A stretch of DNA of 64,000 nt from the human T2T-CHM13v2.0 reference genome, Homo sapiens, in NCBI RefSeq assembly GCF_009914755.1, contig NC_060932.1, one strand, 5' to 3'. The notes beneath the pieces are model-generated. The model made no database searches. It was not told the DNA's origin and worked only from the letters and a program-made list of their open reading frames with translations. The stretch's first letter is position 1; each line of letters starts with the position of its first letter. The position numbers were made by a program, and so were the translations under genes. Shown piece after piece: positions 1,518 through 57,900 of the stretch.

Positions 1518-1593
<76 letters not shown>
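1518..1593. repeat. Compound (CA)n-(GA)n microsatellite
   Basis: Seen directly. Confidence 0.97.
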
Positions 1594-33900: not shown

Positions 33901-35763
33901 TGGGTCTTGAAAGGCCAAGGGACAAAGTAGGAGAAAAGGAGGTATTACTTGTTTTTTTGGCAGCAAGGTTCAGCATTTGATTAAAAAATTATCAAAACTA
34001 TTGTCTACATTGTAATGATTTTTCCAATAAAAAATCAAGATATAAGGCCCACCCAACCAAAAAAAGAGTATTTAAATAATTAAAATGCGACTATTCATTT
34101 GAAAATTCTACAAGGATTTTTTAAATATAACTTTTTATTTAAAAAATAAGTACATGAAATCAGTGCTGTTATAGAAATAAGACTGCTGCATATATCAGAA
34201 CCAGAAACAAAGTTCATTTAAATAAAGGTTCTCATACCTGTGCCTATTCAGTATTTTTTACTGTATACTCTTTTGAATACATGTGGCTGCATTACCTATT
34301 AAAAAATTCTAAGTAATTTTTAAAAATGTTCTACAGCTTAATTTGATAGCCAGCCAGGTTTAGGAATCAATGGACTATGCTACCGACGTGAGAATATTCC
34401 TCAATTGTTAGGAGCATATATGGCTTGAGCAAGTAACTTAAGCTATTAAGTTTCCTTCAAAGAATTAAATGTAGAGACAGTGTGTAGTAGTCAGAACCCT
34501 GGAGTTTGATTAACTGGGGTTGAAACCACTTACTCTGCTACTTATACTAACGGTGTGTAATCTTGGGCAAATTATTTAACCTCTCTGCGACTCCTATGTA
34601 CAAAGGTGCTATTAACAATAATGGTGCAGCGTGTGAAATGATCCCTACCCTCCTGGTATTCATGCTTTCTTGGAATAAATCTTGAGCAAAAAGGGCAAGC
34701 TGGTTTTTGACTGCAGAGAGAATTAGTGTTCCTGACAGCCAAGAAGACTAGAGCTGGATATGTCAGATGAGTTTCTTAGAATCATTCTCTCTCCCTTCTG
34801 TATTGTGATAGACTATCACTCTCATGAAGGGAAAGACTGTTTTTGATGTCTAAAGTTTAGGCCAGTGTCTCACATATAGAAGGGCTCAAATGTTCAATTT
34901 AATAAATAAGGTTTTTGTTTAGTTTTTTTTCCTAATTCCGAGAAAAGACATTAGACTGATGGTTTAAGGAATCGCAAAGCTCTCTGAAATGTAGTAAGGA
35001 TCAACATCAGTGTGGAGAACAGTCTGGAGGGTCATGACTAGAGGCAGACCAATTAGGAGACCATTGCAGTAATCTTGGTGTGATATTATGGGGAACTGAG
35101 GCAAAATAGTCAAAGCAAAGATTCAGAGAAATGTCATGACTGATTTGAGCTATAAGAAGAGAAGAACTGATGGGCTTTCATGATTTATTAGATGTAGATG
35201 ATAAAAGAAGAGAAAGCAAGTTAATACCAGTATTTCTGAGTTGGGCAAAAGGGTATTCAGTGAATCTGGGAATACAGACTGGGTTGAATGACAGGTGGGG
35301 GCGACGATGAATTCAACATGTTAACTTAGGGACAGGGGTTTTGCCTTGTTCTCTGTGGTATTCCCAATGCCTAGCAGGATTCTTACCTCACAGATCAATA
35401 TCTCACTGTATTTATTTTCACAAATTCAATAATTCTTTGAATGTTGAATGAAGTACAGAGATGTTTATAAAAGTGCTCCTTAAGAAGAAAACAAGGAACA
35501 ACCAAAATAGCCAACTTACGGAAATGATTAAGCAAATTATACAGTAATTTGCCAAGACAATCTCAAATGTCTAACAACAAAAATTGGCCAGACAAAAACT
35601 ACAAAAACCACAAAAGATCATATCTTTAAGTGCACTCTCAGATAAGTTAGCTATTTGTTGATGGGTTTTTTTTTTTTTTAAGAAAAAAACGTATTCCAGT
35701 TTCTAAAGAGAAAGAGTTAATTACTGACTCAGTAATAAGTTGAAAACATAAAAATAATAATGG

Positions 35764-35950
35764 AGCCAGGCAGGGTGGCTCATGCCTGTAAAATCCCAGC
35801 ACTTTGGAGGCCAAGATGGGCAGATCACTTGAGGTCAGGAGTTCGAGAACAGCCTGGCCAATGTGGCGAAACCCCATCTCTCCTAAAAATACAAAAATTA
35901 GCCAGGCATGGTGGCCACCTGTAGTCACCCAGCTACTTGGGAGGCTGAGG
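35764..35950 (+). mobile_element. Alu left arm, linker and first part of right arm; remainder replaced by the GAA repeat
   Basis: Alu sequence stops at gggaggctgagg and runs directly into (GAA)n. Confidence 0.93.
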
Positions 35951-36393
35951 AAGAAGAAGAAGAAGAAGAAGAAGAAGAAGAAGAAGAAGAAGAAGAAGAA
36001 GAAAGAAGAAGAAGAAGAAGAAGAAGAAGAAGAAGAAGAAGAAGAAGAAGAAGAAGAAGAAGAAGAAGAAGAAGAAGAAGAAGAAGAAGAAGAAGAAGAA
36101 GAAGAAGAAGAAGAAGAAGAAGAAGAAGAAGAAGAAGAAGAAGAAGAAGAAGAAGAAGAAGAAGAAGAAGAAGAAGAAGAAGAAGAAGAAGAAGAAGAAG
36201 AAGAAGAAGAAGAAGAAGAAGAAGAAGAAGAAGAAGAAGAAGAAGAAGAAGAAGAAGAAGAGAAGAAGAAGAAGAAGAAGAAGAAGAAGAAGAAGAAGAA
36301 GAAGAAGAAGAAGAAGAAGAAGAAGAAGAAGAAGAAGAAGAAGAAGAAGAAGAAGAAGAAGAAGAAGAAGAAGAAGAAGAAGAAGAAGAAGAA
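35950..36393 (+). repeat. (GAA)18 A (GAA)85 GA (GAA)44 trinucleotide repeat, followed by (GGA)n and G-runs to 36440
   Basis: Counted directly; no pyrimidine on the plus strand from 35947 to 36440. Confidence 0.97.
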
Positions 36394-36622
36394 GGGAGGA
36401 GGAGGAGGAGGGGGGGGGAGGGGGAGGGGGAGAAGAAGAATGGGTACTTGAATGAAAGAACTGTTGTAAATACTTAATTTAGATCAAAGAAGGTCTATAA
36501 CAAAAAAAATTCATGTTATCTCAGTAGACCCTTGTGCAGCAGAGATTTAAAGAATACCTTCCACATATATTTCCTTCATAACCACTTCTTAGGTTATATG
36601 AGAATCCTTTTAAAAGTCCTAC

Positions 36623-36812
36623 CTGGTCTTCAGATTTTCAAGGTCTTCAGAGAAAATTGCATGATTTTTTGTCAGGAATGCTCCCAGTTGGTTATCCTCT
36701 ATACCCACATCTTTAAGAAACAGAAGCATTTGCTTAATGTCTTTTTCAAAATCCAGTCTCAGAAGGAGGTTTGCTGCTTCTGGATGTTTTTCTATCTTGG
36801 ACAAATCCACGC
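36623..36812 (-). CDS. MTERF3: MTERF3 exon 4 ([17 protein letters not shown]...LENLKTR)
   Basis: ORF 36619..36810; 190 nt, AG acceptor, GTAGGA donor. Confidence 0.96.
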
Positions 36813-56749: not shown

Positions 56750-57900
56750 CCATTAATTAAAATTTTAGTTAATGTTTTTAAAGAGAATGATGTATTCACG
56801 TCGCTTGAAGTCCAAGATACATCAAAGGGTATGTGGTGAATACCTCTCTCCATACTTCTCCCCAGCCCCTCATTTTTCCTCTTTGGAGAAAACCAGTGTC
56901 ACCATTTTTTTGGGTGGATTTCCAGTGACATCCTGTGCAAGCATAAGCATAAATTATAAGCTACATACCCATACACATTCCCCACCTTGTTTTGCACAAA
57001 TAGTTGCTTATTATACCTACTATTCTGCAATTTGCTTTATTTACTTAATGATATCTTTTAAATTATTATGAATCAGTTGATTCTTAAAAAGCTTCCTTGT
57101 TTTTTTAAATGGCTGCCCAGCTTCCCATCACAAGACTGGACCATAATTTCTTTACTCGGTCTCTTTTTGGTGGACATTTAGATTGCTTCCAACTTTTTAA
57201 GAATACATGTAATGCCATGTGAACAATCTGGGATATATGTCATTTTTGCATGAATGAGAGTTTATCTAAAGGATAAATACCCGAAAGTAAAATTGCTGAG
57301 TCACAGAGCATATGCATTTGTAGACTTAAAATAATGCCAAATTGCCCTCCATAAAGGTGATTTATTTATACTGCTACCAGCAATGTATGAGCATGCCTAT
57401 TTTCCTGTTTCTTCATATCCTCCCCAGCTCAGTCATTAAAGTTTTACCTTTATCAATAAGGTAGATTTTAAAAACAGTTTCTATTTTAACTTACCATGAG
57501 TGAGGCTGACCATCTTTTCACTTCTGAGAGCCTTAGATTTTTTACTCTGTGAACAAACCCTTCATATCCTTTGCCCGTTTTTCAATAAGGTAGACTTTTA
57601 AAACGGTCACTATTTTTAACTTACCATGAGTGAGGTTGACCATCTTTTCACTTCTGAGAGCCTTAGATTTTTTACTCTCTGAACAAACTCTTCATATGCT
57701 TTGCCCATTTTTCTATTTAGATTTTTTTACTTTGTGAACAAACTTCATATCTTTTGCCCGTTTTTCTATTTGTTTTTCTGTGTTAATTTGTTCTTCCTGT
57801 TAGTTGATTTTGGGGAAAATGCTTTGCATATTAAGGAAATTAGTCTTCTGTCTTGATATGAGTTATAAATTTTTTTCCCCCAAGTTTACCTCTTTTCCTT
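56750..57900 (-). mobile_element. Old L1ME fragment, antisense, containing a local tandem duplication
   Basis: tggacatttagattgcttccaact...aaattgctgagtcacagag...ccagcaatgtatgag. Confidence 0.75.
57453..57771. repeat. Tandem duplication, period about 129 bp, two copies plus a partial third
   Basis: tcaataaggtaga...cttaccatgagtgagg...ttgccc repeated at 57453 and 57582; 3' part repeated again at 57717. Confidence 0.93.

What the first reader, a model, noticed from the sequence alone, without database searches (positions are those of the whole stretch)
35947..36440. About 147-unit GAA repeat (longest pure run 85) in MTERF3 intron 4
Seen: (GAA)18-A-(GAA)85-GA-(GAA)44, then (GGA)n and G-runs, giving 494 nt with no pyrimidine, starting about 180 nt after the exon 4 donor. 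Established: long intronic GAA.TTC tracts form H-DNA and R-loops, stall polymerases and silence FXN (Friedreich ataxia) and FGF14 (SCA27B); an 85-unit pure run is within the range regarded as expanded at FXN. Here the orientation is opposite (pre-mRNA reads UUC). Inference: a highly length-polymorphic, unstable locus that may modulate a mitochondrial ribosome-biogenesis gene. This haplotype may be much longer than other reference alleles; I could not verify that.
Basis: partly seen in the sequence, partly recalled or inferred. Interest (0 to 1): 0.85.

Follow-up and report, generated by a model that had tools for sequence, protein, structure and literature searches.

The report
Long polymorphic GAA repeat in MTERF3
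A real 147-unit GAA microsatellite lies in an intron of the mitochondrial gene MTERF3 and holds the longest uninterrupted GAA run in this complete human genome, but healthy people often carry long forms of this catalogued, highly variable repeat, so it is most likely a benign unstable polymorphism.

Summary
Window 35947-36440 is 494 nt with no pyrimidine: GAG-(GAA)18-A-(GAA)85-GA-(GAA)44, a (GGA)n/G-run block, then (GAA)3. It lies 182 nt from the exon 4 donor.

In the window's own assembly only 3 loci have a pure run of 61 or more GAA units. This one (85) is the longest, ahead of the FGF14 disease locus (81) and an X-linked Alu-tail repeat (68). Only 18 runs reach 34 units.

The tract starts inside the right arm of a 3'-truncated Alu. 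That junction is unique in the genome.

The locus is already catalogued (PMC13020279, Table S1). In 191 healthy children GRCh38 has 22 units, the median is 39, the maximum 121 and H_e 0.96. This closely resembles FGF14 in the same table.

The purine strand is the template strand, as at FGF14 and unlike FXN. No test of MTERF3 expression was possible.

Verdict: a real, hypermutable, Alu-associated GAA.TTC microsatellite, with CHM13 carrying an upper-tail allele. It is probably benign at this length. A dosage effect of much larger alleles is not excluded. Interest is modest.

The parts
35762..35949 (+). 3'-truncated Alu: left monomer, A-rich linker and about 50 nt of the right monomer, ending ...GGGAGGCTGAG
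   Evidence: It aligns to a full-length Alu (taken from L010) over Alu positions 13-184 of 282, with no gap to the tract. Rfam gives Metazoa_SRP at 35765-35882, E 4.2e-11, below the gathering score, and the Alu-derived mir-1268 family at 35899-35949, E 1.7e-5. The start coordinate is read by eye and is good to about 3 nt.
35947..36440 (+). All-purine tract; on the MTERF3 sense strand it is an all-pyrimidine tract
   Evidence: 494 nt, the only run of this kind of 40 nt or more in the window.
35950..36003 (+). (GAA)18, followed by a single extra A at 36004
36005..36259 (+). (GAA)85 pure run, the longest pure GAA run in the assembly, followed by GA at 36260-36261
   Evidence: 25 overlapping hits of a 61-unit probe at C8:97376005, which equals 85 units; only two other loci gave any hit.
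36262..36393 (+). (GAA)44 pure run
   Evidence: It is one of the 18 runs of 34 or more units in the genome.
36394..36431 (+). G-rich end of the G/A island: G(GGA)5, G9, G5, G5. A G-quadruplex-type motif lies at 36410-36430 on the template strand.
   Evidence: regex for four G-runs.
36432..36440 (+). Terminal (GAA)3, followed by unique intron sequence
   Evidence: The 3' flank has no Alu similarity: scores 17-19 against shuffle means of 17-18.
36623..36812 (-). MTERF3 exon 4. Its donor, CAG|GTAGGA, lies 182 nt upstream (in gene orientation) of the tract.
   Evidence: Hub annotation for the exon; sequence at the junction read.

Best explanation
This is a genuine, hypermutable GAA.TTC microsatellite that grew out of an Alu insertion in MTERF3 intron 4. 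T2T-CHM13 carries an upper-tail allele of a common, very variable polymorphism.

Likely history (inferred). A sense-oriented Alu brought an A-rich tail. A-to-G changes turned the tail into a G/A island with GAA and GGA units. Slippage then lengthened the GAA part. A one-off deletion or misalignment removed the distal ~100 nt of the Alu right arm, so the repeat now starts right after ...GGCTGAG.

Behaviour (established for long pure GAA tracts, inferred here). Once pure runs pass roughly 30-100 units they change length often in the germline. The drivers are replication slippage, triplex (H-DNA)-associated fork stalling and mismatch-repair-dependent expansion.

Effect on the host gene (inferred, not shown). 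At 85 pure / 147 total units the effect is small. The purine strand is the template strand, which is the weakly blocking orientation. Long alleles are common in healthy people. The nearly homozygous CHM13 line carries this allele and grows.
For: Structure.

Alu origin. Of the 13 long-GAA loci examined, 5 abut the 3' end of a sense Alu. This fits the published rule that over 60% of GAA repeats of 8 or more units lie in Alu poly(A) tails (PMC3812793 citing Clark 2004, passages).

Hypervariability in healthy people (PMC13020279 Supplementary Table S1): hg38 chr8:96250616, Ref 22, mean 38, median 39, min 1, max 121, 191 of 191 individuals genotyped, instability rating 0.979, SD 25.8, EE50 53, EE100 4, H_e 0.960. 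It is the only MTERF3 row in that table. The window has no other GAA or TTC run of 4 or more units, so the row must be this tract.

Other GAA loci with still larger medians (54 and 69 units) appear in the one part of 296 of that table that I read. Long GAA alleles are therefore a common class.

Orientation: transcription is hindered mainly when the purine strand is the non-template strand, and purine-RNA hybrids are the stable ones (PMC11667243, passages). Here the purine strand is the template.

CHM13 is a hydatidiform-mole line with low heterozygosity (passages).
Against: No measurement of MTERF3 expression, chromatin or splicing was possible.

The control distribution at this locus is nearly the same as that of the FGF14 disease locus in the same table (median 22, max 123, EE50 62, EE100 5). 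So 'common in controls up to about 120 units' does not exclude harm from much larger alleles.

The orientation equals that of FGF14, where expansions of 250 or more units lower expression.

The 85-unit pure run sits at the 75-100-unit threshold where FGF14 alleles become unstable (PMC11969470).

MTERF3 is essential in mouse and fly (PMC3536695).

The deletion history of the Alu is inference. The possible target-site duplication (AATAATAATGG before the Alu, AAGAAGAATGG after the tract; 9 of 11 identical, read by eye) is weak because both are A-rich.

Short-read length estimates above 150 bp are model-based, as the authors themselves state.
Confidence: 0.7

Rival explanations
1. FGF14/FXN-like dosage locus. 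Long alleles, especially ones well beyond CHM13's, lower MTERF3 transcription in cis through triplex formation and heterochromatin. The repeat would then be an expression modifier, and very large or biallelic expansions could cause a mitochondrial-translation disorder.
For: The repeat has the same motif, is intronic and has the same strand orientation as FGF14. The reservoir of long normal alleles is at least as large as at FGF14: median 39 against 22, EE100 4 against 5 of 191. The pure run of 85 is above the FXN threshold and at the FGF14 instability threshold. The tract lies only 182 nt from an exon of an essential gene. Reverse-orientation repeats also reduced RNA yield in vitro.
Against: No paper in the held library links MTERF3 to a GAA or other DNA repeat. 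Searches: MTERF3 with 'GAA repeat' gave 0; with 'tandem repeat' 16; with 'repeat expansion' 3; with 'microsatellite' 9; MTERFD1 with GAA 4; none was relevant. Alleles over 50 units are common in healthy children. FGF14 needs 250 or more units. The template-strand purine orientation is the weaker blocker. Heterozygous loss is tolerated in flies.
Confidence: 0.2
2. The length or fine structure is partly a technical or cell-line artefact. The tract may lie in a region of HiFi dropout patched from nanopore data, or it may have changed during CHM13 culture. In that case the 147 units and the 1-2-nt interruptions would not reflect a germline allele.
For: T2T-CHM13 had HiFi coverage dropouts at GA-rich sequence that were filled from an ONT-based assembly (PMC9186530). 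There were 218 low-HiFi-coverage loci, about 78-81% of them GA-rich, and the authors warn of repeat shortening in microsatellites (10.1101/2021.07.02.450803). The total of 147 units exceeds the short-read maximum of 121.
Against: Alleles of 100 or more units are seen independently at this locus in 4 calls among 191 people, so a long allele is expected. The short-read maximum is probably a ceiling, because FGF14 tops out at 123 in the same data. FGF14 alleles were stable over ten fibroblast passages. I could not see the list of dropout loci because bioRxiv supplements are closed.
Confidence: 0.08
3. Splicing element. In the pre-mRNA the tract is a 494-nt polypyrimidine run that contains UCUU motifs (recalled PTBP1-type sites) and is followed directly by CAG. 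It could recruit pyrimidine-tract proteins near exon 4 or act as a cryptic 3' splice site, with a length-dependent effect.
For:: the minus strand reads ...TTCTTCTTCCTCAG|CCTCCC..., and the first purine after the tract is the A of that AG. The tract begins 182 nt after the exon 4 donor.
Against: No exon is annotated here in any of the 4 listed transcripts (hub table). The nearest possible branch-point A lies 494 nt or more upstream of that AG. The nearest GT after it (CAG|GTGGCC) would give an exon of only 26 nt (read). The protein-binding preference is recalled, not tested.
Confidence: 0.04

Closest known systems
FGF14 intron 1 GAA.TTC repeat (SCA27B)
   Same: Both are pure GAA repeats on the plus strand inside an intron of a minus-strand gene, so both pre-mRNAs read UUC. 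The control length distributions are very similar in one data set. CHM13 carries 81 pure units there and 85 here.
   Different: The FGF14 tract has unique flanks, no Alu and no G-rich tail. It is deep in a very large intron, whereas this one is 182 nt from an exon. FGF14 has proven disease alleles of 250 or more units with reduced expression; nothing of the kind is known for MTERF3.
FXN intron 1 GAA repeat (Friedreich ataxia)
   Same: Both are intronic GAA.TTC tracts associated with an Alu, in a nuclear gene for a mitochondrial protein. The run length here is above FXN's affected threshold of more than 66 units.
   Different: At FXN the purine strand is the non-template strand and the RNA reads GAA (recalled; consistent); here it is the template strand. 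The FXN repeat sits in the Alu middle A-rich linker, while this one starts in the right arm. Normal FXN alleles are short, with a median of 5 and a maximum of 49 in the same catalogue, whereas here the median is 39.
Alu poly(A)-tail-derived GAA microsatellites, e.g. the chrX:50.89 Mb locus of this assembly
   Same: Both have a sense-strand Alu immediately 5' of a long, slightly interrupted GAA array. The chrX locus reads AA(GAA)68 GAG (GAA)20. Of the 13 long loci examined, 5 are of this type.
   Different: In those loci the Alu is complete up to its tail. Here the Alu similarity stops at position 184 of 282, and no other place in the genome has this junction.
RFC1 AAGGG repeat (CANVAS)
   Same: It is an intronic purine-rich, H-DNA-capable repeat derived from an Alu tail (table in PMC11667243).
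   Different: It is a pentanucleotide repeat in which a change of motif is pathogenic. Here the motif is a simple GAA with a GGA/G-rich end.

Membership tests
Alu-derived GAA.TTC microsatellite | Tandem array of GAA units within a G/A-only island | tested here: met
   148.3 copies, 99% matches, in a 494-nt purine-only tract.
Alu-derived GAA.TTC microsatellite | Array directly abuts a sense-oriented Alu | tested here: met
   no gap to the tract; 7SL and mir-1268 matches ending at 35949.
Alu-derived GAA.TTC microsatellite | Array occupies the Alu poly(A) tail or the middle A-rich linker | tested here: not met
   Alu similarity ends at position 184 of 282, inside the right arm. The 3' flank has no Alu similarity. 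The junction is unique in the genome. A tail origin followed by a deletion is inferred, not shown.
H-DNA-forming motif (homopurine.homopyrimidine mirror repeat) | Homopurine strand with mirror symmetry over tens of bases | tested here: met
   pure (GAA)85 and (GAA)44. (GAA)n is listed as an H-motif in PMC12214015.
H-DNA-forming motif (homopurine.homopyrimidine mirror repeat) | Triplex actually forms in cells | not testable with these tools
   This needs S1/permanganate footprinting or similar assays.
Disease-causing GAA expansion (FXN / FGF14 type) | Intronic GAA.TTC tract in an expressed gene | tested here: met
   Hub annotation plus (intron 4).
Disease-causing GAA expansion (FXN / FGF14 type) | Allele length above a pathogenic threshold | tested here: inconclusive
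   The 85 pure units exceed FXN's threshold of 66 but fall below FGF14's 250. No threshold exists for MTERF3.
Disease-causing GAA expansion (FXN / FGF14 type) | Length-dependent loss of host-gene expression | not testable with these tools
   No expression or chromatin data were available.
Disease-causing GAA expansion (FXN / FGF14 type) | Segregation with a phenotype | not tested
   No main-text link appears in the held library. Supplements of other papers are not searchable as a whole.
Hypervariable 'large normal' STR | Many alleles and high heterozygosity in unaffected people | tested here: met
   Taken from print, not computed here: PMC13020279 Table S1 gives H_e 0.960, range 1-121 and instability rating 0.979 in 191 individuals.

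The most novel reading that the evidence does not exclude
MTERF3 could be a third human GAA-expansion locus. Its pool of long, pure, transcribed alleles is as large as at FGF14. It may occasionally throw off alleles of several hundred units that silence this essential mitoribosome-assembly gene in cis. Biallelic cases would then present as a Friedreich-like or mitochondrial-translation disease. Shorter long alleles would act as a common cis modifier of MTERF3 dosage.
Probability: 0.05. Interest if true: 0.8.

Novelty: new member of a known kind. Interest (0 to 1): 0.3.

Why it matters
Only two GAA repeats, FXN and FGF14, are tied to disease, and both were found late. This locus has the longest pure GAA run in the first complete human genome. 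It has the same strand orientation as FGF14 and a near-identical length spectrum in healthy people. It lies close to an exon of an essential mitochondrial gene. That makes it a reasonable candidate to genotype in long-read cohorts and in unsolved ataxia or mitochondrial-disease cases.

If, as I expect, long alleles prove harmless, it becomes a useful natural control. It would show that 85-150 GAA units in a transcribed intron, with the purine strand as template, are tolerated. It would also be a reminder that FXN's threshold cannot be carried over to other loci.

The locus is also a likely trouble spot for HiFi coverage and short-read sizing.

Tried and rejected

(2) Alu continuation after the tract: rejected. 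Local alignment scores of 17-19 equal the shuffle means of 17-18.

(3) The idea that the right-arm site ...GGCTGAGG is a recurrent birthplace of GAA repeats: rejected. The junction with five or more GAA units, with 0-4 spacer bases allowed, occurs once in the genome, and that is here.

The ranking by composite length therefore covers 13 of 17 loci. It also does not cover tracts built only of runs shorter than 34 units.

(5) Rafehi 2023 (PMC9892775) is not held. FGF14 details come from other papers.

(6) The columns EE50 and EE100 are not defined in the parts of PMC13020279 that I read or searched. I take them to be counts of calls above 50 and 100 units.

(7) PMC12958757 mentions MTERF3 only in a list of coding variants and is irrelevant.

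(8) Cryptic Alu exon: no annotation supports it and the geometry is poor.

(9) No collection of other human or ape assemblies is available in these tools. Orthologues and other haplotypes were not compared.

This report is the same with that field added.

Full report
**1. Observation**

Window 35947-36440 is a 494-nt run without a single pyrimidine. It is the only purine or pyrimidine run of 40 nt or more in the 64-kb window. It reads GAG, (GAA)18 at 35950-36003, one extra A, (GAA)85 at 36005-36259, GA, (GAA)44 at 36262-36393, then G(GGA)5, G9, A, G5, A, G5, A and (GAA)3.

TRF reports 148.3 copies at 99% identity with a score of 874. This is by far the strongest tandem repeat in the window; the next scores 444. 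With a purine fraction of 0.505, chance is irrelevant: the log10 probability is -146.5.

Using the hub's exon table, the exon 4 donor on the minus strand is CAG|GTAGGA at 36622. The tract starts 182 nt into the 4,832-nt intron 4 and makes up 10% of it.

**2. How unusual it is within this genome**

The window's own assembly (3.12 Gb, 24 contigs) can be scanned for patterns.

- A 61-unit GAA probe hits only three places. This locus gives 25 overlapping hits, which equals 85 units. C13:101,377,550 gives 21 hits, or 81 units. C23 (X):50,892,793 on the minus strand gives 8 hits, or 68 units.
- A 34-unit probe gives 300 overlapping hits and a 35-unit probe gives 282. The difference means the genome holds 18 pure runs of 34 or more units. 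Two of them, 85 and 44, are in this tract.
- A 20-unit probe gives 2,500 overlapping hits.

The MTERF3 run is therefore the longest uninterrupted GAA run in the assembly.

I fetched 13 of the 17 loci that hold those 18 runs. Among them this tract is also the longest purine-only tract, at 494 nt against 419 for the next. It also has the most GAA units, 150 against 110. Tracts built only of shorter runs were not surveyed.

**3. The chr13 locus is FGF14, and its orientation matters**

A Pfam FGF-domain exon lies at C13:100,942,629-100,942,811 on the minus strand. That is 435 kb from the repeat, which reads GAA on the plus strand. The published hg38 start of the FGF14 repeat is 102,161,575. In CHM13 the tract is a pure (GAA)81 with unique flanks and no Alu.

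So at FGF14, as at MTERF3, the gene's sense strand carries TTC and the pre-mRNA reads UUC.

**4. Origin**

Immediately 5' of the tract lies a sense-strand Alu.

- Rfam finds 7SL similarity at 35765-35882 (E 4.2e-11, below the gathering score). It also finds the Alu-derived mir-1268 family at 35899-35949.
- Aligned to a full Alu from the chrX locus, the similarity covers Alu positions 13-184 of 282 and ends flush with the tract.
- The 3' flank shows no Alu similarity: scores of 17-19 against shuffle means of 17-18.

The distal ~100 nt of the right arm and the poly(A) tail are therefore missing.

The 13 long loci examined sort as follows:

- 5 abut the 3' end of a complete sense Alu, the classic tail origin.
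- 5 have no upstream Alu.
- 1 has a weak alignment ending near the Alu middle.
- 1 has an Alu 192 nt away.
- Only this one starts within the right arm.

The junction (the end of the Alu match followed by five or more GAA units, with 0-4 spacer bases allowed) occurs once in the whole genome, and that is here. It is therefore not a recurrent nucleation site.

Published work places over 60% of GAA repeats of 8 or more units in Alu tails and about 2% in the middle linker, the FXN case (PMC3812793 citing Clark 2004, passages). I infer a tail-born GAA/GGA island followed by a single deletion into the Alu body. A possible target-site duplication (9 of 11 bases, read by eye) is too A-rich to count as evidence.

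**5. What is in print**

No paper in the held library links MTERF3 or MTERFD1 to a GAA or other DNA repeat in its main text. The hits were 0, 16, 4, 3 and 9 for the five searches, and none was relevant.

The locus is, however, in Supplementary Table S1 of Annear, Vandeweyer and Kooy, BMC Genomics 2026 (PMC13020279). I read the Methods, two Results sections and parts of the table. That study ran ExpansionHunter v5 on 150-bp PCR-free genomes of 191 unaffected children.

The row reads: chr8:96250616, Ref_Units 22, mean 38, median 39, min 1, max 121, Hits 191, Instability_Rating 0.979, SD 25.755, EE50 53, EE100 4, POLYMORPHIC, MTERF3, intronic, GAA, H_e 0.960. Decimal points were lost in the stored copy.

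It is the only MTERF3 row, and its neighbours are GDF6 and LOC102724804, as in the hub table. The window has no other GAA or TTC run of 4 or more units. The CHM13-to-hg38 offset, from a recalled hg38 gene start, puts window position 35950 within 1 bp of that coordinate.

For comparison, the FGF14 row reads: Ref 50, mean 26, median 22, min 9, max 123, rating 0.995, EE50 62, EE100 5, H_e 0.885. FXN has Ref 4, median 5 and max 49.

In the single part of 296 that I read, two further GAA loci have medians of 54 and 69 units. The authors warn that lengths beyond the read length are estimates. EE50 and EE100 are not defined in the parts I read.

**6. What this means**

The repeat is real, very polymorphic and often long in healthy people. 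CHM13's allele, 147 units in the three main blocks, lies above the short-read maximum. That maximum is probably a ceiling. The GRCh38 allele is much shorter as catalogued, although purity trimming may have shortened that entry.

**7. Mechanism**

Established knowledge, taken from the passages I read:

- GAA length and purity drive meiotic instability at FGF14 (10.1101/2023.05.11.540430). The thresholds are about 75-100 units in the germline and about 90 in the cerebellum. Transcription through the repeat promotes instability (PMC11969470).
- H-motifs stall polymerases mainly when the purine strand is the non-template strand. Purine-RNA hybrids are the stable ones, although the reverse orientation also lowered RNA yield in vitro (PMC11667243).
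- FXN thresholds are up to 33, 34-66 and above 66 units. FGF14 needs 250 or more units, and expression falls in patients.

At MTERF3 the purine strand is the template. So the FXN-type R-loop block is not expected, while an FGF14-type chromatin effect at much greater length cannot be excluded.

MTERF3 is essential in mouse and fly, and heterozygous flies are normal (PMC3536695). CHM13 is a mole-derived line with low heterozygosity. Both copies therefore presumably carry this allele, which argues against outright silencing. Cultured cells can tolerate poor respiration, however, so this argument is weak.

**8. Technical caveat**

T2T-CHM13 had HiFi dropouts at GA-rich sequence that were patched from a nanopore assembly (PMC9186530). 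There were 218 low-coverage loci, about 78-81% of them GA-rich. I could not see whether this locus is among them because the supplements are closed. The two small interruptions and the exact unit count need raw reads.

**9. Verdict**

This is a new, unusually long member of a well-known class: Alu-associated hypervariable GAA.TTC microsatellites. It is already listed in a published catalogue but has never been discussed.

- Most likely (0.7) it is a benign hypermutable polymorphism.
- A dosage effect of larger alleles has perhaps a 0.2 chance.
- A disease role has about 0.05.

Interest is modest at 0.3. The notable facts are its top rank in a complete genome, its likeness to FGF14 in orientation and allele spectrum, and its odd Alu junction.

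Noticed in passing
L009 2051-2296 (G000 C13:101,377,550-101,377,795): The FGF14 (SCA27B) repeat in this assembly is a pure (GAA)81 with unique flanks. That is well above the control median of 22 in PMC13020279 and within the 75-100-unit range where FGF14 alleles become unstable.
   Followed up: partly
L010, minus strand (G000 C23:50,892,7xx): The third-longest pure GAA run in the genome reads AA(GAA)68 GAG (GAA)20. It sits directly on the poly(A) end of a complete Alu on the X chromosome. The host gene was not identified.
   Followed up: partly
window 35945-35949, minus strand: On the MTERF3 sense strand the 494-nt pyrimidine tract is followed at once by CAG (…TTCCTCAG|CCTCCC), which is the shape of a 3' splice site. 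No exon is annotated there and the nearest branch-point A is 494 nt or more away.
   Followed up: partly
window 36410-36430, plus strand: G9-A-G5-A-G5 forms a G-quadruplex-type motif on the template strand of MTERF3, right next to the triplex-prone GAA tract.
   Followed up: no
window 57449-57771: There is a two-copy tandem duplication of a 130-nt unit (91% identical, TRF score 444), with an overlapping 53-nt period, inside PTDSS1 intron 1.
   Followed up: no
window 1519-1593: A compound dinucleotide microsatellite, (CA)19.5 followed by (GA)15, both perfect, lies upstream of UQCRB.
   Followed up: no
L013 (G000 C2:221,031,197) and L014-L016: Other long GAA loci are embedded in much more degenerate GAA/GGA/GAGGAA islands of 255-419 purine-only nt. 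The MTERF3 tract is unusually pure for its length.
   Followed up: partly
G000 C1:100,375,026 and C1:101,507,112 versus hg38 chr1:100,526,964 and chr1:101,657,855: If these are the same loci (similar offsets of about 151 kb, not verified), GRCh38 has 69 and 60 units where CHM13 has about 22 and 35. That would show that which locus holds the longest GAA run differs between genomes.
   Followed up: no
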